Source of the DNA: Candidatus Shapirobacteria bacterium | GTDB taxonomy: Bacteria; Patescibacteriota; Microgenomatia; UBA12405 | DNA: 49,578 nucleotides | Direction: 5' to 3' | Assembly: GCA_041665485.1 (NCBI GenBank) | Contig: JBAYIT010000003.1 | Span: 133,146-182,723 of the forward strand | Part shown: positions 19,611 to 24,475 of the stretch, piece by piece | Layout: every line of letters begins with the position of its first letter | Numbering within the stretch: position 1 is the first letter of the stretch | Program-made: the position numbers and the translations under genes | The notes under the pieces: model-generated | Seen by the model: only the letters and a program-made list of their open reading frames with translations | What the model was told of the DNA's origin: nothing | Database searches by the model: none

Positions 19611-20838
19611 TCCCGGCATTTATATTTATCGCAATCGTGCCGGAGATATTATTTATGTTGGTAAGGCCATTAATCTTAAAAAGCGTGTTTCTCAATATTT
19701 TAGCCGTGATGATGCCTTAGGTATTAAAACGTCCCAATTGGTTTCTCAAATCGCCTCGGTTGAAACCAAAGTCGTCGGTTCAGAAATCGAAGCTCTGATT
19801 CTTGAAGCTTCGTATATCAAAAAATATCATCCCAAATATAATTCCCAGCTTAAAGATGATCGTAGTTATTTATACATTTGTATCTCAACCGAATTAATTC
19901 CCCGAATTTTCACTTCCCATCAGTCAAATCTTCCTCCCAAAGCCGAAATTTATGGTCCCTTTCCTGATGGTGCATCGGTCAAATCCCTTCTTAAAATTAT
20001 CCGTCGTATTTTTCCTTTTCGCAGTCTTGAAAAGCACCCTACCGGAGATTGTCTTTATTGCCATCTTGGCCTTTGTCCTGGAGCCAAACCTGATCTCCAT
20101 ATTTATAAAAAATCAATTAGTCATATCAAACAAATTCTTTCCGGCCGATTCACTTATCTCCAAAAAAATCTTCGCCGGGAAATGGCCCTGGCTTCCAAAA
20201 GTCAAAATTACGAACTAGCAGTCAGTCTTCGCGATCAGCTCACGAATCTTGAATATGTTGTTTCCGGTTGGAGCAATCTTTCCCATCTTTATCAGCAAAT
20301 CGACCTTCCTGAAGACCAACAGTCATCAGCTATTAATGAATTATCGTCAACCCTCAAAATACCTCTGATTAATCGCATCGAATGTTTCGATATTTCTCAA
20401 CTCGGCACCAAATATTTTGTCGGTTCAATGACTGTTTGGCAAAATGGCCATCTCGATAATTCTCAATATCGTAAATTTAAGATTCTCTATAAAGCCAGTC
20501 CCGACGATCAATTAATGATTAAAGAAATCGTCTATCGTCGTCTCAAGCATCCGGAGTGGGGGACTCCTGATCTAATTGTTGTCGATGGTGGCAAGCCCCA
20601 AGTGACAGCAGCCGAGACGGTTGTTTCTAAGATCTACGATCTAAGATCTAAGATCTCTGTTCTCGGTCTAGCCAAAAAACTCGAAACTATCGTTATAAAA
20701 AATGGCGATTCTTGGCAAGAAATTAATCTTCCCCACCACTCCACCGCTCTTCGCCTGCTCCAGCAACTCCGTGACGAAGCCCACCGCTTCGCCAATCGTT
20801 ATCGAAAAGAGTTAATATCAAAGCAATGGATAAATTAG
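19585..20838 (+). CDS. uvrC: excinuclease ABC subunit C, short form lacking the C-terminal (HhH)2 domain
   Basis: GIY-YIG (PGIYIYRN...IIYVGKA), UVR domain (YELAVSLRDQL) and endonuclease domain (IECFDISQ...VVDGGKPQ...LRDEAHRFA). Start set at ATG 19585 (MINLKSLPS); the track start is 19564. Confidence 0.9.
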   Translation: MNLKSLPSNPGIYIYRNRAGDIIYVGKAINLKKRVSQYFSRDDALGIKTSQLVSQIASVETKVVGSEIEALILEASYIKKYHPKYNSQLKDDRSYLYICISTELIPRIFTSHQSNLPPKAEIYGPFPDGASVKSLLKIIRRIFPFRSLEKHPTGDCLYCHLGLCPGAKPDLHIYKKSISHIKQILSGRFTYLQKNLRREMALASKSQNYELAVSLRDQLTNLEYVVSGWSNLSHLYQQIDLPEDQQSSAINELSSTLKIPLINRIECFDISQLGTKYFVGSMTVWQNGHLDNSQYRKFKILYKASPDDQLMIKEIVYRRLKHPEWGTPDLIVVDGGKPQVTAAETVVSKIYDLRSKISVLGLAKKLETIVIKNGDSWQEINLPHHSTALRLLQQLRDEAHRFANRYRKELISKQWIN

Positions 20839-21512
20839 TCTCTGTCGTCATACCCTGTTTTAATGAAGAAGAACGGATATTACCGGTTTTGAATTCTCTT
20901 AAACAATCAAAATCGTGTGGTGAAATTATCGTCGTCGACGATGGCTCCAATAAGACTACCAAAGATATTTTAATCGCCGTCAAAGGCATTAAACTAATTA
21001 CTCATCCTAAAAATCTTGGCAAAGCCCAAGCCTTAAAAACCGGCATTCTTCAAGCTAAATACGATGTCATCGTTTTTATCGATGCTGATTTAGTCAATCT
21101 TACCCCAGATCATATCAATGCCCTGATAGAACCAGTTATAAATTCCGATTGTGATCTAACCTTAAGTGATCGGCCCGAAGAATCGTTTTACACTGTTTTC
21201 TCTGGCTTTAATATTGCCTATACTGGCGAGCGTTGTGTTAGACGCCAACTCTTGCTTCAACATTTAGACATTTTCGATAATCCTGGTTACTTAATCGAAT
21301 CCTCTATGAACCGGATATTTTTTAAAAATTATCGGGTTAAAAAAGTACCATTTCCCGAAGTCGGCCAAATATCAAAAAGCAAAAAATATGGCATTGTCAA
21401 AGGTCTTTACTTGGACGCTAAAATGTTTTTTCAAATCATCCAATTTTCAGGTCTTAAAGAGCTTATTTTTCAACTATCTTTTGCCAAAAGGCTACCCGGT
21501 TATCCCCAATAG
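20826..21512 (+). CDS. glycosyltransferase family 2
   Basis: VSVVIPCFNEEERI, IIVVDDGSNKTT and FIDADL (DxD) motifs. Confidence 0.85.
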   Translation: MDKLVSVVIPCFNEEERILPVLNSLKQSKSCGEIIVVDDGSNKTTKDILIAVKGIKLITHPKNLGKAQALKTGILQAKYDVIVFIDADLVNLTPDHINALIEPVINSDCDLTLSDRPEESFYTVFSGFNIAYTGERCVRRQLLLQHLDIFDNPGYLIESSMNRIFFKNYRVKKVPFPEVGQISKSKKYGIVKGLYLDAKMFFQIIQFSGLKELIFQLSFAKRLPGYPQ

Positions 21513-23048
21513 CCCCTTCATCTTCTTCAATGCTTCGGCGTTTTTTCCGATTTCAAAATGCTTCCGAGCCGGCTCTAGTTTTTCAATTAACCAGTCAGAT
21601 AAGGCGTTTTTTAAATCCAGTGGAAATAATTTTTCGCTCTGGTAATCAGCCGTTAAGTCGGCCATGGTGTTGTAAACCACCTTACCTCCAAATCTTTCCG
21701 GCCGGTCAACCACAAAATTGCCAGTCTTCTCGCCCCAAAATATCAATGTCTCCACCCAATTTAGTAGTGGGTTAAACTCAACTTCTTTCGGTGGGCCGTA
21801 AGCTTTTTTAATTTTGTTCCTAATTTCGTCTGGAGTGTCGTGAATAAACACCGCGCTGTTCGGCTTCGACTTACTCATCTTCAATGATTCAGCGTCATTG
21901 TCGCCTGCCTGCGGGCCAGAAAGACCAGCAATTAAATTCTGGTGAATCGCCACCGGTGTTTGGTGTTTCCCAGGAATCTTTTTAATTGCCTCTCTGGCAA
22001 TCACATGAGCCTTTCTTTGGTCCATGCCAGCATGTGCCAAATTAATATCTAGGGTCACTATATCCGCCACCTGTAGTGGTGGGTAGAAGAGGGTGGCCAT
22101 ATTGACATCCGTGCCCTGCTTTTTACCCATAATCGAAATCGATCTTAAGTCACGAGCTAAAGTTACTTGTTTGCCCACTTCCATAAATGTTTGCCAATGA
22201 TCCGGCCGGCTTTCATACAAATCTTTTCCCGAAATAAATTCGACCTGATCACCCTCAACTCCGAAGCACTTAAGTGAAGCAATTAGTCCTTCTTTAAAAT
22301 AACTCTCCGATGCCCAGCGAATATCCTCCCACTTTCCGCCTAATTTATTATTCAAAAAAGTATGGAAATCAGCCAAAAATATTCTGCATTTTGCCCCGGC
22401 CTGCAAAAAGTCGGCAATTTTTCCCATCGACAATAATCCCGTTCCCAAATGCACTAACCCCGAAATCTCAAAGCCAATGTAGTGCGACAGGGGGGTGCCA
22501 GACTCTATTAGCGCCCTCAAGTCCTCCTCCGTCAGCACCTCCTGGCAGTTTCTAGTTATCAATCTAATTTTTTCTTCTGTGTCCATGTTCTTTTCTTCTG
22601 CAATTGATACTACCTTGCATTTTAGATGATCTAAAACCACCTCCAGTTTAACATTAATCCCGTGTTTAGTGTCTCCTGCTCCCATACTCCAAATTTTTTG
22701 GCTCATCAGTTTCTTATCCACTAATGTTTTTATCTCCAAAACCAATGGGCAAACTCCGCCCGCTACCAACTCCAGTTTAACCAATTCATCGCCAGTCGCC
22801 ACTCTCCATTTACCAATTAAAGCCGACAACTTTTTATCATCAACTCTGTCGCTCCCACCAACAACTACAGCTGTAAAACCTGCATCGGTTTTCACTACTA
22901 ACGTTTTGATTGCATTTTTTGGATCATAATTTTTCCCCATTGACGTGTCGCTGGTTCTGGCCGAAATGGCCGTATCACCAAACTCCACCACTTCAAAATC
23001 AATCTTCTGCTTTTTTAACCGATCACATATTTCCATAAAATCTTTCAT
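21492..23048 (-). CDS. tyrS: YbaK/ProX-like aminoacyl-tRNA deacylase domain fused to archaeal/eukaryal-type tyrosyl-tRNA synthetase
   Basis: Residues ~1-150: LKKQKIDFEVV..., AIKTLVVK, VAGGVCPL (YbaK/tRNA_edit pattern). Residues ~160-518 align along their length with M. jannaschii-type TyrRS: HYIGFEISGLVHLG, LADFHTFLN, YPPLQVADI, AGMDQRKAHVIARE, KMSKSKP, EIRNKIKKAY, RPERFGG, LFPLDLKNA..LIEKLEPARKHF. Confidence 0.85.
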   Translation of the reverse strand: MKDFMEICDRLKKQKIDFEVVEFGDTAISARTSDTSMGKNYDPKNAIKTLVVKTDAGFTAVVVGGSDRVDDKKLSALIGKWRVATGDELVKLELVAGGVCPLVLEIKTLVDKKLMSQKIWSMGAGDTKHGINVKLEVVLDHLKCKVVSIAEEKNMDTEEKIRLITRNCQEVLTEEDLRALIESGTPLSHYIGFEISGLVHLGTGLLSMGKIADFLQAGAKCRIFLADFHTFLNNKLGGKWEDIRWASESYFKEGLIASLKCFGVEGDQVEFISGKDLYESRPDHWQTFMEVGKQVTLARDLRSISIMGKKQGTDVNMATLFYPPLQVADIVTLDINLAHAGMDQRKAHVIAREAIKKIPGKHQTPVAIHQNLIAGLSGPQAGDNDAESLKMSKSKPNSAVFIHDTPDEIRNKIKKAYGPPKEVEFNPLLNWVETLIFWGEKTGNFVVDRPERFGGKVVYNTMADLTADYQSEKLFPLDLKNALSDWLIEKLEPARKHFEIGKNAEALKKMKGLLGITG

Positions 23049-23051
23049 AGT

Positions 23052-23732
23052 TTAGTTTAATAAATTTTTAACTGCCGTGTTTGCCAAGATATCCATGGTG
23101 TCTAAAAATAAAATCTTACGATTGAATTCTTGCCATACCTCGCTCAATAACTGCAGTTCGCTGCACCCCAAAATGCAAGTTTCAATGCCACTATCAATAA
23201 AATTATTTAACACTTTTTCTAACATATTTTTGTCAGATTTGGTTGCCACCTTGCCCTTGGCTAACCTGTCAAGCATTTGGCTAATTTTTATTTGCTTATT
23301 TTTATCAGGAACAGTTAATTCAAATTTATTTGACACAAATAATTTATTCTTAACGGCAAAAGTTGTTGCTAGTAACCCAACCTTTTCTAATTTTATTTGC
23401 TTTTTTGTCTCTTCAATTGCGCTCATAACTGGAATATCAACATTTTTTTGAACCTCATCAATAAAAACATGCACCGAATTACAGGCAATAATTAAAAAAT
23501 CTGCTCCGGCTAATTCCAATCTCTTGGCGGCTTTAGCCATTAGAGTTGGGAAGTTGCCGGAATCATTATCGGTAATTAGTCTGGTTTCGGCCATTAAATT
23601 TATTGGTAAACTGGCCACTAAAATATCCGGCCTGGTTTTTTGGCCAGACGCTACAAATTTATTAATGATTTTGGTAACTAATTGGTTGGTGGCTTCCGGG
23701 CCCATCCCCCCAATTATTCCTAAGGTTTTCAT
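23052..23732 (-). CDS. aspartate/glutamate racemase family protein
   Basis: GIIGGMGPEAT, the two catalytic-Cys motifs IIACNSVH and ILGCSEL, and a size (~226 aa) typical of aspartate racemases. Confidence 0.8.
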   Translation of the reverse strand: MKTLGIIGGMGPEATNQLVTKIINKFVASGQKTRPDILVASLPINLMAETRLITDNDSGNFPTLMAKAAKRLELAGADFLIIACNSVHVFIDEVQKNVDIPVMSAIEETKKQIKLEKVGLLATTFAVKNKLFVSNKFELTVPDKNKQIKISQMLDRLAKGKVATKSDKNMLEKVLNNFIDSGIETCILGCSELQLLSEVWQEFNRKILFLDTMDILANTAVKNLLN

Positions 23733-23735
23733 AAG

Positions 23736-23807
23736 TCCAACGGGCAGGAGTTGAACCTGCTTTAAACGGTTTTACAGACCGTTGCCTAACCGTCCGGCTC
23801 CCGTTGG
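23736..23807 (-). tRNA. tRNA-Tyr (anticodon GUA), class I (short variable arm) with a C1:G72 first pair
   Basis: Hand fold of CCAACGGGAGCCGGACGGTTAGGCAACGGTCTGTAAAACCGTTTAAAGCAGGTTCAACTCCTGCCCGTTGGA. Acceptor CCAACGG/CCGTTGG, D stem GCC/GGC, anticodon stem ACGGT/ACCGT with loop CTGTAAA, 5-nt variable loop TTAAA, T arm GCAGG-TTCAACT-CCTGC, discriminator A. No CCA is encoded. Confidence 0.85.
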
Positions 23808-23811
23808 TTGC

Positions 23812-23835
23812 GGCACGGCGGTTCCCCGCCATGCC
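23812..23835 (-). other. stable 10-bp hairpin with GGAA tetraloop immediately 5' of tRNA-Tyr
   Basis: Minus strand GGCATGGCGG-GGAA-CCGCCGTGCC. No U-tract follows. It lies between the orf96 stop and the tRNA 5' end, so it may be a processing or stability element. Confidence 0.5.
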
Positions 23836-23847
23836 TAGATATAGTCT

Positions 23848-24138
23848 TTATCCGCCATTGTTTTGAAAATCTTTAACTCTGTTAAACGCGTCTCTAGCTA
23901 TCATCCCAAGATCACTTCTAAATCCGTGATCAAAGGTTCCAACTAGTCGGCCTACTGCAAGTTTAGCCATTGCCTCCACCGATCTTCCATCTGGGCAATC
24001 AAGCCATTCGAGTGCAACGCTTTGTCCCACAATAGTCGCAACTCGCATTGCTCTTTGTCGTCGAGTTAAGCCAGTTTGGATCTCCCAATTTGGTAGAGAC
24101 GGATTAATACCGTCAAAACTAATTTCTCTATTTTTCAT
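23848..24138 (-). CDS. hypothetical protein (96 aa), first ORF downstream of the T-box leader
   Basis: Strong SD (AAGGGAGGTGATAAAAAATG). No recognisable motif. Confidence 0.5.
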   Translation of the reverse strand: MKNREISFDGINPSLPNWEIQTGLTRRQRAMRVATIVGQSVALEWLDCPDGRSVEAMAKLAVGRLVGTFDHGFRSDLGMIARDAFNRVKDFQNNGG

Positions 24139-24204: not shown

Positions 24205-24265
24205 ACACCAAAAAGCCCCCACACCAGTCCAAACCATTAATATGGTCGGGACTAGGGTGAGGGCT
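24205..24265 (-). terminator. intrinsic terminator of the T-box leader
   Basis: AGCCCUCACCCUAGUCC (24265..24249) pairs with GGACUGGUGUGGGGGCU (24230..24214): 16 of 17 positions paired, 2 of them G.U. It is followed by UUUUU (24214..24210). Confidence 0.8.
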
Positions 24266-24440
24266 TGACCAGTTTGACTGGTTTTCTCACGGTACCACCT
24301 AGTTTCCCCCGCAGGGGCGGGGCTTATTATCGAGTATTTGCTAAAAGCAGTGTTACCCTATCTCTATTCCGGGAGATCCCGCTCCGATTTTGTCGAAGTG
24401 CTCCGGGGGTGTATTACGTCCCCATCCGCGTTCCAAGTTA
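24205..24440 (-). promoter_or_regulatory. T-box riboswitch leader (transcription attenuation type), probable tyrosine (UAC) specifier
   Basis: T-box consensus AAACUAGGUGGUACCGUGAG at 24305..24286. Antiterminator: A1 ACUAGG/CCUAGU, bulge UGGUACC, A2 GUGAG/CUCAC. A mutually exclusive terminator is present. Stem III is CCCCGC-CCCU-GCGGGG (24322..24306). The first hairpin GGGG-ACGUAAUACA-CCCC presents UAC+A (UAC at 24413..24411). Confidence 0.85.
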
Positions 24441-24445
24441 AAAGT

Positions 24446-24475
24446 ATCATACCACCAAAAAATCTTACTTGTCAA
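24446..24475 (-). promoter_or_regulatory. strong sigma70-type promoter for the T-box operon
   Basis: -35 TTGACA (24475..24470), 18-nt spacer, extended -10 TGgTATGAT (TATGAT 24451..24446). Confidence 0.7.

What the first reader, a model, noticed from the sequence alone, without database searches (positions are those of the whole stretch)
21492..23732. YbaK-like trans-editing domain fused to TyrRS, next to an amino-acid racemase: possible chiral/mischarging proofreading module
The first ~150 residues of the 518-aa synthetase have the YbaK/ProX/EbsC pattern: LKKQKI.F, the conserved Lys in IKTLVV, and GGVCPL. This free-standing deacylase fold is normally associated with ProRS editing, not with TyrRS.

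The gene immediately upstream (3-nt spacer) is an Asp/Glu-type two-Cys racemase, which produces D-amino acids. TyrRS is the classic enzyme that mischarges D-Tyr, which is normally cleared by a separate D-Tyr-tRNA deacylase.

Hypothesis (inference only): the fused domain clears D-aminoacyl- or otherwise mischarged tRNA-Tyr in an organism that makes D-amino acids and may lack dtd.
Basis: inference. Interest (0 to 1): 0.65.

Follow-up and report, generated by a model that had tools for sequence, protein, structure and literature searches.

The report
TyrRS fused to YbaK-type deacylase
An ultra-small (CPR, Shapirobacteria) bacterium makes its only tyrosine-charging enzyme, usually described as having no proofreading module, as one protein with a YbaK-fold tRNA-deacylase domain, in a single gene string with the tyrosine tRNA and a dedicated amino-acid racemase; this points to an undescribed, probably D-tyrosine-directed, proofreading step that has not been tested.

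Summary
Window 21492-23048(-) is one 518-aa ORF. Residues 1-154 are an INS/YbaK-fold domain: Pfam tRNA_edit E 6e-15, model pLDDT 95, TM 0.8-0.86 to YbaK/ProX, Lys48 and the G97xxxP101 loop conserved. Residues 155-518 are the genome's only TyrRS, of archaeal type. The gene 3 nt upstream is a two-Cys Asp/Glu-family racemase.

A tRNA-Tyr gene ends 3 nt before the racemase start codon. A sub-threshold T-box-like leader lies further upstream.

The N-domain belongs to a tight clade (100/100 support). Its members are fused or adjacent to three different kinds of TyrRS. They often follow a tRNA-Tyr gene. In at least four separate architectures they follow one specific racemase clade, sometimes with no TyrRS nearby. 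A B3/4 editing-type domain is sometimes inserted.

The racemase and N-domain have recombined as a unit onto different TyrRS bodies, with the breakpoint at the linker.

DTD1 and DTD2 are absent, but DTD1 is absent from almost the whole family, so this is not specific.

Best reading: a tRNA-Tyr-directed cis-editing domain, most probably clearing D-Tyr-tRNA-Tyr. No activity or chirality was tested. I found no published description. I class it as a new variant of a known kind.

The parts
24446..24475 (-). Sigma-70-like promoter (TTGACA, 18 nt, TG-TATGAT; 11 of 12 matches)
   Evidence: This is a consensus match only.
24207..24435 (-). T-box-like leader. The T-box motif AGGUGGUACCGUG lies at 24300-24288. 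A terminator hairpin with a U-run lies at 24273-24207.
   Evidence: Rfam RF00230 gives 20.3 bits, E 0.044, far below the gathering score of 93. The motif and hairpin were read directly in the sequence. The specifier codon was not established.
23848..24138 (-). 96-aa ORF of unknown function with a strong Shine-Dalgarno sequence, between the leader and the tRNA
   Evidence: (no Pfam match). L017, the nearest relative's locus, has no called gene between its sortase gene and its tRNA-Tyr.
23735..23807 (-). tRNA-Tyr (GUA): 73 nt, short variable arm, C1-G72 and A73 (the archaeal/eukaryal identity set), no encoded CCA. Its discriminator base is 3 nt from the racemase ATG.
   Evidence: Rfam tRNA 54.7 bits; ARAGORN; sequence. 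Identity rule from PMC7373986.
23052..23732 (-). PLP-independent two-Cys amino-acid racemase (Asp/Glu racemase family), a member of the racemase clade that partners the YbaK-like domain
22587..23048 (-). N-terminal INS/YbaK-fold domain of the fusion (residues 1-154). The Lys48 codon is at 22905-22907. The G97-P101 loop is present.
21492..22586 (-). Archaeal-type TyrRS body (residues 155-518). It carries HLGT in place of HIGH, and KMSKS. It is the only TyrRS in the genome.
   Evidence: best structural match P. horikoshii TyrRS 2cyc, 48% identity, TM 0.86.

Best explanation
The locus is one co-directional unit: promoter, T-box-like leader, orf96, tRNA-Tyr, racemase, YbaK-like-TyrRS.

The N-terminal domain is a member of a distinct, TyrRS-dedicated clade of the INS (YbaK/ProX) superfamily. 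I propose it acts as a cis post-transfer editing domain. After TyrRS charges tRNA-Tyr, the 3' end samples the appended domain. A wrong aminoacyl ester is hydrolysed there, using the conserved Lys48 and GxxxP-loop pocket.

The most likely substrate is D-Tyr-tRNA-Tyr. My reasoning is as follows:
- TyrRS is known to charge D-Tyr efficiently.
- The cell has no DTD.
- The partner racemase, which I read as a tyrosine racemase salvaging D-Tyr into L-Tyr for charging, keeps both enantiomers present at the synthetase.

Shown here: the domain architecture, the fold, conservation of the catalytic-type residues, the repeated linkage of this clade to TyrRS, to tRNA-Tyr and to one racemase clade, co-recombination of the racemase with the domain, and absence of DTD1/DTD2.

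Inferred: deacylase activity, tRNA-Tyr specificity, D-chirality of the substrate, the racemase substrate, and co-transcription.
For: Link to TyrRS:
- Membership of the INS fold, with Lys and GxxxP retained.
- The clade is separated from the nearest free-standing relatives with 100/100 support. 26 of its 34 sampled members are fused or adjacent to a TyrRS.
- Three TyrRS kinds are involved: Shapirobacteria archaeal-type, a second archaeal/eukaryal-type, and bacterial-type with S4 domain.
- Domain orders vary: YbaKL-TyrRS; YbaKL-B3/4-TyrRS; B3/4-YbaKL-TyrRS; and YbaKL and TyrRS as separate adjacent genes. This points to repeated independent coupling.
- tRNA-Tyr lies upstream on the same strand in the window and in 17 of the 30 scanned loci (about 12 after obvious duplicates are removed). 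One of these is an 86-nt, presumably long-variable-arm, tRNA-Tyr next to a bacterial-type TyrRS (L045).

Link to the racemase:
- Racemases next to YbaKL form one clade (98/95 support). They occur in four architectures, including translationally coupled stand-alone pairs.
- Window versus P0002: TyrRS body 94% identical, N-domain 44%, with a sharp DNA breakpoint at the linker.
- Window versus L017: dS is 0.70 for the racemase and 0.63 for the N-domain, against 2.6 for the TyrRS body.
- The racemase and the domain therefore move together.

Other support:
- Purifying selection on the N-domain (dN/dS 0.19).
- No DTD1 or DTD2 in the genome.
- In vitro, E. coli TyrRS esterifies tRNA-Tyr almost fully with D-Tyr. 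D-Tyr-, D-Asp- and D-Trp-tRNAs are the documented DTD substrates (PMC1807948).
- In this genome AspRS also carries a YbaK-like domain. A second racemase clade sits immediately upstream of TrpRS in 8 of 8 members.
Against: - No biochemical data exist. Nothing in the sequence reveals enantioselectivity. Characterised INS-superfamily members act on L-aminoacyl-tRNAs (Cys, Ala, Abu, Ser/Thr).
- Only about a third of loci with known context have the racemase.
- The same slot holds aminotransferases or an M20 peptidase plus kinase in other lineages. The domain is therefore needed without a racemase.
- DTD1 is absent from about 91% of sampled Patescibacteria, whereas this clade is rare (own genome only among 401 sampled, at clade-level scores). 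It is not the general substitute for DTD.
- The racemase's closest solved relative is an aspartate racemase, and its substrate is unknown.
- The source's gene caller preferred an internal start (Met155). A free TyrRS could be made as well.
- The relative position of the two active sites could not be examined, because model coordinates and PAE were not available.
Confidence: 0.5

Rival explanations
1. The domain edits tRNA-Tyr mischarged with an L-configured near-cognate or non-protein amino acid (for example L-DOPA, meta-tyrosine, a halogenated or nitrated tyrosine, or Phe). The racemase, aminotransferase and peptidase in the slot are only alternative tyrosine-supply enzymes.
For: All characterised INS-family enzymes act on L-aminoacyl-tRNA (PMC11295145). 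The domain persists in lineages where the slot holds an aminotransferase or M20 peptidase instead of a racemase. Some relatives add a second editing-type domain (B3/4), which suggests more than one unwanted substrate.
Against: This does not explain the free-standing, translationally coupled racemase/YbaK-like pairs with no TyrRS nearby. It also does not explain the dedicated racemase clade. From general knowledge, not tested here: TyrRS discriminates Phe very well without editing.
Confidence: 0.22
2. The domain is non-catalytic. It is an appended tRNA-binding or 3'-end-holding module that raises the affinity of TyrRS for tRNA-Tyr or protects or hands off Tyr-tRNA-Tyr.
For: CPR synthetases carry many appended domains. 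In the INS superfamily the conserved Lys is thought to position the tRNA 3' end (general knowledge), so it could equally serve binding alone.
Against: The whole active-site signature is invariant across the clade (K48, T49, G97, P101, G123, G125, G130, N132) and under purifying selection. Free-standing members exist without any TyrRS attached. A pure affinity module would not be expected to travel with a racemase.
Confidence: 0.12
3. The domain is an ordinary ProRS trans-editing factor (Cys- or Ala-tRNA-Pro deacylase) that happens to be fused to TyrRS.
For: Weak matches to TIGR00011 YbaK_EbsC and to the ProRS INS region. Only three PF04073 hits occur in the genome, so its ProRS has no detectable INS domain and needs a trans factor.
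Against: TIGR00011 scores 32 bits against a cut-off of 153. The genome has a separate canonical free-standing 152-aa YbaK/ProX-type protein that scores much higher on PF04073 (91.5 bits against 58.8) and can serve ProRS. The clade is tied to three TyrRS types and to tRNA-Tyr genes, never to ProRS, in the loci examined.
Confidence: 0.05
4. The fusion is an annotation or assembly artefact, or a decaying remnant. The real product is the 364-aa TyrRS from Met155.
For: The source's gene call starts at Met155 (P0003). No obvious Shine-Dalgarno sequence precedes the first ATG.
Against: There is no stop codon between the domains. dN/dS is 0.19. At least ten fused homologues from independent assemblies share the architecture. 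The upstream racemase is also leaderless-like, so weak Shine-Dalgarno sequences are normal here.
Confidence: 0.03

Closest known systems
INS superfamily of aminoacyl-tRNA deacylases: YbaK (H. influenzae 1dbu/1dbx, E. coli 2dxa), ProXp-x / T. thermophilus ProX TTHA1699 (2cx5, 2z0k), A. pernix APE2540 (1wdv), and the ProRS INS domain
   Same: Same fold (TM 0.79-0.86). Pfam PF04073. The conserved Lys on the central strand. The GxxxP substrate loop.
   Different: About 20% sequence identity. Fails the YbaK equivalog model. Forms its own clade with extra invariant residues (R31, S36, N40-Y41, W81, N132). Attached to TyrRS and tRNA-Tyr rather than to ProRS. The 2024 review (PMC11295145) describes the non-INS members as single-domain proteins and does not mention TyrRS.
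ProXp-ala-ProRS N-terminal fusions (Plasmodium, trypanosomatids) and the bacterial ProRS INS insertion
   Same: An INS-fold editing domain built into a synthetase so that it works in cis.
   Different: There the host enzyme is ProRS, whose mischarging with Ala or Cys is well known. Here the host is TyrRS, a class Ic enzyme for which I know of no described editing domain.
D-aminoacyl-tRNA deacylases (DTD1 PF02580, DTD2 PF04414, DTD3), and the DTD-like N-terminal editing domain of archaeal ThrRS
   Same: The same proposed job (removal of D-Tyr from tRNA-Tyr). Archaeal ThrRS shows that a free-standing deacylase fold can be recruited as a cis-editing domain.
   Different: Unrelated fold. No sequence match. 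The D-specificity of the present domain is only inferred.
PheRS beta-subunit B3/4 editing domain and free-standing B3/4 deacylases such as CtdA (PMC10018355, PMC12449066)
   Same: In relatives (P0122, L048, L064, L046) a B3/4 domain is fused or adjacent to this YbaK-like domain and TyrRS. A second known deacylase fold is therefore recruited to the same enzyme.
   Different: The window's protein has no B3/4 domain. tblastn with the B3/4 domain of P0122 and the free-standing B3/4 protein of L046 found nothing in this genome.
Aspartate racemase of Pyrococcus horikoshii (1jfl/2dx7) and the broad-specificity YgeA/RacX-type racemases
   Same: Full-length alignment, two catalytic Cys, and a score above the TIGR00035 cut-off.
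   Different: About 35-40% identity. Forms a separate clade that always sits before the YbaK-like gene. Substrate unknown. By my own count on the pairwise alignment, a Glu stands where I recall the Asp-binding Arg48 of the P. horikoshii enzyme. The role of Arg48 is from memory and was not verified.

Membership tests
INS (YbaK/ProX) superfamily, Pfam PF04073 tRNA_edit | Profile match above the curated cut-off | tested here: met
   55.8 bits against 25.5, E 6e-15, residues 37-136.
INS (YbaK/ProX) superfamily | YbaK alpha/beta fold | tested here: met
   Model pLDDT 95.5. Foldseek: 1dbx E 5e-11 TM 0.79; 2cx5 TM 0.86; 1wdv TM 0.79; ProRS INS TM about 0.7.
INS (YbaK/ProX) superfamily | Conserved Lys (YbaK K46 / ProRS K279 position) and GxxxP loop | tested here: met
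   K48 and G97-P101 align with the Lys and the GGISPL loop of YbaK and ProRS INS. Both are invariant in 28 clade members. The residue numbers K46 and K279 are from memory.
INS (YbaK/ProX) superfamily | Hydrolysis of a mischarged aminoacyl-tRNA | not testable with these tools
   Needs a deacylation assay.
YbaK proper (Cys-tRNA(Pro) deacylase, TIGR00011 / NF007951) | Equivalog model above cut-off | tested here: not met
   TIGR00011 gives 32.2 bits against 153.25. NF007951 is not reported.
Archaeal/eukaryal-type tyrosyl-tRNA synthetase (NF006330) | Equivalog model above cut-off, class I signature motifs, and structural match | tested here: met
   374.4 bits against 220. HLGT and KMSKS present. 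2cyc 48% identity, TM 0.86. It is the only TyrRS in the genome. The cognate tRNA has C1-G72/A73.
PLP-independent amino-acid racemase (TIGR00035, PF01177) | Model above cut-off and two catalytic Cys | tested here: met
   140.7 bits against 93.1. C84 and C190 align with Cys82 and Cys194 of 1jfl.
PLP-independent amino-acid racemase | Substrate (tyrosine?) | not testable with these tools
   The CuyB equivalog gives 127 bits against a cut-off of 190, so it is not met. No model for an aromatic amino-acid racemase is available.
D-aminoacyl-tRNA deacylase (DTD1 PF02580 / DTD2 PF04414) | Sequence membership | tested here: not met
   Neither family matches anywhere in the genome. The similarity is in proposed function only.
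T-box leader (RF00230) | Covariance-model score at gathering threshold | tested here: not met
   20.3 bits against 93, E 0.044. The T-box 13-mer and a terminator are visible by eye. I treat it as probable, not established.

The most novel reading that the evidence does not exclude
The racemase plus YbaK-like pair is a mobile two-gene 'D-tyrosine salvage plus chiral proofreading' cassette. It plugs in between tRNA-Tyr and tyrS and has repeatedly fused to TyrRS.

On this reading the YbaK-like clade would be a fourth, convergent class of D-aminoacyl-tRNA deacylase, built on the INS fold. It would also be the first cis-editing domain of a class Ic synthetase. The parallel racemase-TrpRS pairs and the AspRS-YbaK-like fusions would extend the same logic to D-Trp and D-Asp, the other two documented DTD substrates.
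Probability: 0.35. Interest if true: 0.85.

Novelty: new variant of a known kind. Interest (0 to 1): 0.72.

Why it matters
TyrRS is a standard example of a synthetase that achieves accuracy without an editing site. It is also the classic source of D-aminoacyl-tRNA, which cells are thought to clear with DTD.

Most Patescibacteria sampled here lack DTD (366 of 401 genomes). How they enforce homochirality in translation is an open question.

This locus offers a concrete candidate that can be expressed and assayed: an INS-fold domain tied genetically to TyrRS, to tRNA-Tyr and to a dedicated racemase.

If the domain is D-specific, it would be a new structural solution to chiral proofreading. It would also widen the substrate range of the INS superfamily. 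If instead it edits an L-analogue, that would show TyrRS needs proofreading in some niches.

The racemase-synthetase operons (Tyr and Trp) further suggest that these auxotrophic symbionts salvage D-aromatic amino acids released by other bacteria.

Tried and rejected
- **Narrow pattern scan.** The scan of genome contigs with the fused-domain alignment found only 3 loci, because the derived peptide patterns were very narrow. A broader alignment on metagenome contigs gave 28 loci.
- **Family-level co-occurrence.** All 3 fusion genomes are among the 16 of 104 with a racemase homologue. I do not use this as support. The racemase tree shows that the G061 homologue lies outside the YbaKL-partner clade, and the G016 homologue (27% identity) was not placed.
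- **DTD absence as an argument.** It is family-wide and nearly phylum-wide, so it is permissive rather than discriminating.
- **B3/4 domain.** tblastn found none in the own genome.
- **Literature.** I searched for YbaK/TyrRS fusions, for DTD in the candidate phyla radiation, for editing domains in Patescibacteria, and for ProXp-ala acting on D-Ala-tRNA. None returned a description of this architecture.
- **ProXp-7/8/9.** I could not test whether the clade equals one of the uncharacterised ProXp-7/8/9 families, because no reference sequences were available.
Full report
**1. What is there**

On the minus strand, window 21492-23048 is a single 518-aa ORF.
- Residues 37-136 match Pfam tRNA_edit PF04073 (55.8 bits, cut-off 25.5).
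- Residues 155-507 match the archaeal-type TyrRS equivalog NF006330 (374 bits, cut-off 220).
- The YbaK equivalog TIGR00011 is far below its cut-off (32 against 153). The domain is therefore of the YbaK/ProX fold but is not YbaK itself.
- A profile of the N-domain aligns Lys48 (AIKTLV) with the Lys of H. influenzae YbaK and of the ProRS INS domain. It aligns G97-G-V-C-P101 with their GGISPL loop.
- An AlphaFold model of residues 1-154 has pLDDT 95.5. It superposes on YbaK 1dbx, T. thermophilus ProX 2cx5/2z0k, APE2540 1wdv, E. coli YbaK 2dxa and ProRS INS domains with TM 0.7-0.86.
- The full-length model has pLDDT 87 and pTM 0.71. Its best structural match is P. horikoshii TyrRS (48% identity, TM 0.86).
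- The genome is about 99% complete, 1.14 Mb, and by the names of homologues a Candidatus Shapirobacteria (Patescibacteria/CPR). It has only one other PF00579 gene, a TrpRS. The fusion is therefore the housekeeping TyrRS.

The gene 3 nt upstream (23052-23732) is a 226-aa Asp/Glu-family racemase. It scores 140.7 bits on TIGR00035 (cut-off 93.1). It aligns over its full length with P. horikoshii aspartate racemase 1jfl, with both catalytic Cys present.

**2.

- A tRNA-Tyr (GUA) gene lies at 23735-23807 on the same strand. Its discriminator base is 3 nt from the racemase ATG, and no CCA is encoded.
- The tRNA is 73 nt with a short variable arm, C1-G72 and A73. That is the archaeal/eukaryal identity set, which fits the archaeal-type TyrRS (rule in PMC7373986).
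- Further upstream are a 96-aa ORF of unknown function and a leader. The leader has a strong sigma-70-like promoter, the T-box motif AGGUGGUACCGUG, and a terminator hairpin with a U-run.
- Rfam's T-box model scores the leader only 20 bits (E 0.044, gathering score 93). I treat the T-box as probable, not established.
- The unit therefore reads: promoter, T-box-like leader, orf96, tRNA-Tyr, racemase, YbaK-like-TyrRS.

**3. The N-domain belongs to a TyrRS-dedicated clade**

A profile search of 1.84 billion representative proteins found 619 relatives, of which only 8 had E below 1e-30.

Those top hits, together with 28 metagenome loci and 3 genome loci, give the following architectures:
- fused to the Shapirobacteria archaeal-type TyrRS;
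- fused to a second archaeal/eukaryal-type TyrRS (L028, L049, L056, L059, L062);
- fused to bacterial-type TyrRS (L045, P0124, P0125);
- with a B3/4 editing-type domain in either order (P0122 YbaKL-B3/4-TyrRS; L064 B3/4-YbaKL-TyrRS; L048 YbaKL-B3/4-archaeal TyrRS);
- as a separate gene directly before tyrS (L052/53, L065/66);
- as a separate gene before a free-standing B3/4 gene (L046);
- free-standing directly after a racemase gene (L023, L027, L060, L061).

In a maximum-likelihood tree the clade is separated from the nearest free-standing YbaK-like proteins with 100/100 support. 26 of its 34 rows are physically linked to a TyrRS.

A tRNA-Tyr gene lies upstream on the same strand in 17 of the 30 scanned loci, about 12 after removing obvious duplicates. 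In L045 an 86-nt, presumably long-variable-arm, tRNA-Tyr precedes the racemase and a bacterial-type TyrRS.

Independent coupling to non-orthologous TyrRS types and to both tRNA-Tyr types is strong Rosetta-stone evidence that the domain works on tRNA-Tyr.

**4. The racemase link**

Immediately upstream racemases occur in four different architectures: free-standing YbaKL, YbaKL-archaeal TyrRS, YbaKL-bacterial TyrRS, and YbaKL-B3/4-TyrRS. The free-standing pairs overlap by 4 nt (ATGA) and have no TyrRS nearby. One such pair sits in a conjugative-element-like context.

All eight of these racemases form one clade (98/95 support). It is distinct from the other racemase paralogues of the family.

In the window the racemase and the N-domain share a history that differs from that of the TyrRS body:
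- Against P0002 (L070), the TyrRS body is 94% identical and the N-domain 44%. DNA identity jumps from about 55% to about 93% exactly at the linker. L070 has no racemase.
- Against L017 (the P0001 lineage, which has the racemase), dS is 0.70 for the racemase and 0.63 for the N-domain, but 2.6 for the body.

The racemase and the domain have therefore recombined as a cassette onto different tyrS bodies. All three parts are under purifying selection (dN/dS 0.15, 0.19 and 0.04).

The racemase is not universal, however. In other fused lineages the slot between tRNA-Tyr and the fusion holds one of the following:
- a class I/II aminotransferase (L028, L062, L065, L068);
- an unknown gene plus M20 peptidase plus AAA_33 kinase (L019, L043), or the M20 peptidase alone (L016);
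- other unknown genes (L015, L057).

Apart from the kinase and the unknown genes, these are amino-acid-transforming enzymes. I read the slot as holding tyrosine-supply genes, with the racemase acting as a D-Tyr to L-Tyr salvage enzyme. This is inference.

**5. DTD and distribution**

Neither DTD1 (PF02580) nor DTD2 (PF04414) is found in the genome.

DTD1 is also missing from 103 of 104 family genomes and from 366 of 401 evenly sampled genomes of the phylum. The fusion is present in only 3 of 104 family genomes, in three genera, and not in the other genome of the same genus. At clade-level scores, none of the other 400 sampled genomes of the phylum has it.

The absence of DTD is thus permissive but not specific. 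The module is a sporadic accessory rather than the general CPR answer to D-aminoacyl-tRNA.

**6. Mechanism proposed**

The documented DTD substrates are D-Tyr-, D-Asp- and D-Trp-tRNA. In vitro, E. coli TyrRS charges tRNA-Tyr almost fully with D-Tyr (PMC1807948).

Three observations in this genome fit that list:
- TyrRS carries the YbaK-like domain.
- AspRS carries a different, C-terminal YbaK-like domain. That domain lies in a roughly 600-820-aa reading frame, consistent with fusion, in about 17 of 104 family genomes.
- TrpRS is preceded by a racemase of a second clade. All 8 members of that clade examined sit directly before a TrpRS.

The most economical reading is that racemases feeding aromatic L-amino acids to their synthetases expose those synthetases to the D-enantiomer. 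The YbaK-like domain would then remove D-Tyr from tRNA-Tyr in cis, using the conserved Lys48 and GxxxP pocket.

I put about 0.65-0.7 on 'tRNA-Tyr-directed deacylase'. Within that, I put about 0.35-0.4 overall on D-Tyr as the physiological substrate.

Rival explanations and my estimates:
- editing of an L-analogue (0.22);
- a non-catalytic tRNA-handling domain (0.12);
- a stray ProRS trans-editing factor (0.05). This is disfavoured because a canonical free-standing YbaK/ProX protein is also encoded;
- an artefact (0.03).

**7. Comparison with what is known**

[quoted passage not shown] It describes the non-INS members as single-domain proteins and does not mention TyrRS (PMC11295145).

Full-text searches found no paper describing a YbaK-TyrRS fusion, or DTD substitutes in CPR bacteria.

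Precedents for the logic exist: ProXp-ala-ProRS fusions, the DTD-like editing domain of archaeal ThrRS (PMC7373986), and free-standing B3/4 deacylases such as CtdA (PMC10018355, PMC12449066).

The feature is a member of the INS superfamily by every test available here. It is a new clade with a new partner enzyme. I classify it as a new variant of a known kind.

**8. Earlier notes of this scan**

Earlier AI notes report the same theme in other CPR genomes, and the T-box and tRNA features in this window. I used them only as leads.
- The repeated TyrRS coupling, the racemase pairs, the tRNA-Tyr gene 3 nt before the racemase ATG, and the frameshifted second racemase were all found or re-derived here from primary searches.
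- The T-box was only partly verified.

**9. Limits**

- No activity, chirality or racemase substrate has been tested.
- Co-transcription is inferred from spacing.

Noticed in passing
Own genome contig C4:70525-72365 (locus L004 1348-3188, minus strand), outside the window: There is a parallel unit for tryptophan: a tRNA-like gene, then a second Asp/Glu-family racemase paralogue, then TrpRS (335 aa, no YbaK-like domain). The tRNA-like gene (Rfam tRNA 45 bits) has a roughly 19-21-nt perfect palindrome inserted in the anticodon loop, and ARAGORN cannot name its anticodon. The N-terminal ~25 codons of the racemase (MTNKKVIGILGGMGPQAS...) are in a different frame from the rest, which indicates a frameshift, pseudogene or sequencing error.
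   Followed up: partly
Loci L034-L040 and L004 (family genomes G022, G043, G047, G051, G091, G092, G100 and the own genome): A second racemase clade (95/93 support) lies immediately upstream of TrpRS, on the same strand, in 8 of 8 members examined. This is a conserved racemase-TrpRS gene pair in Shapirobacteria. In L038 the TrpRS reading frame is 494 aa, so it may carry an extra domain.
   Followed up: partly
Own genome C3:~59.7-61.6 kb (locus L001), about 71 kb before the window: The AspRS has a C-terminal YbaK/ProX-like domain (PF04073 100.8 bits), a subfamily different from the TyrRS one. The domain lies in a roughly 600-820-aa reading frame, consistent with fusion, in about 17 of 104 family genomes. 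Several of those hits have one internal stop codon between the AspRS body and the domain.
   Followed up: partly
L054:57-3643 (metagenome contig Ga0100401_1024296): Two tRNA-Tyr genes of different kinds (73 nt short-arm and 84 nt long-arm) are followed by a bacterial-type TyrRS and then a YbaK-like-archaeal-type TyrRS. One CPR genome appears to carry both TyrRS/tRNA-Tyr pairs side by side.
   Followed up: no
P0122; L064:117-2654; L048:993-2333; L046:70-1267: B3/4 domains (PF03483, the fold of the PheRS editing site and of CtdA) are fused or adjacent to the YbaK-like domain and TyrRS, in both domain orders and with both TyrRS types. These are TyrRS enzymes with two tandem editing-type domains.
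   Followed up: partly
window 23848-24138 (-): A 96-aa ORF with a strong Shine-Dalgarno sequence and no Pfam match lies between the T-box-like leader and tRNA-Tyr. L017, the nearest relative's locus, has no called gene at that position.
   Followed up: no
window 23808-23835 (-): A G+C-rich 10-bp hairpin with a GGAA loop (GGCAUGGCGG-GGAA-CCGCCGUGCC) lies directly 5' of the tRNA-Tyr gene and has no U-run. It could be a processing or stability element.
   Followed up: no
L023/L024/L047 (NCBI GCA_037133595.1 and metagenome contigs): The free-standing racemase/YbaK-like pair sits among T4SS pilin, TraG/TrwB-like and Replic_Relax relaxase genes. It appears to be carried on a conjugative-element-like region. 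A second racemase of another clade, an EamA transporter and a Trp-repressor-like gene are nearby.
   Followed up: no
window 20826-21512 (+) against 21492-23048 (-): The convergent GT2 glycosyltransferase gene overlaps the 3' end of tyrS by 21 nt. The order uvrC, GT2, tyrS, then sortase, greA and lysS is conserved across Shapirobacteria.
   Followed up: no
Own genome C1:2293-2365: A second tRNA-Tyr (GUA) gene shares only 60 of 73 positions with the window copy. Both have C1-G72/A73.
   Followed up: no
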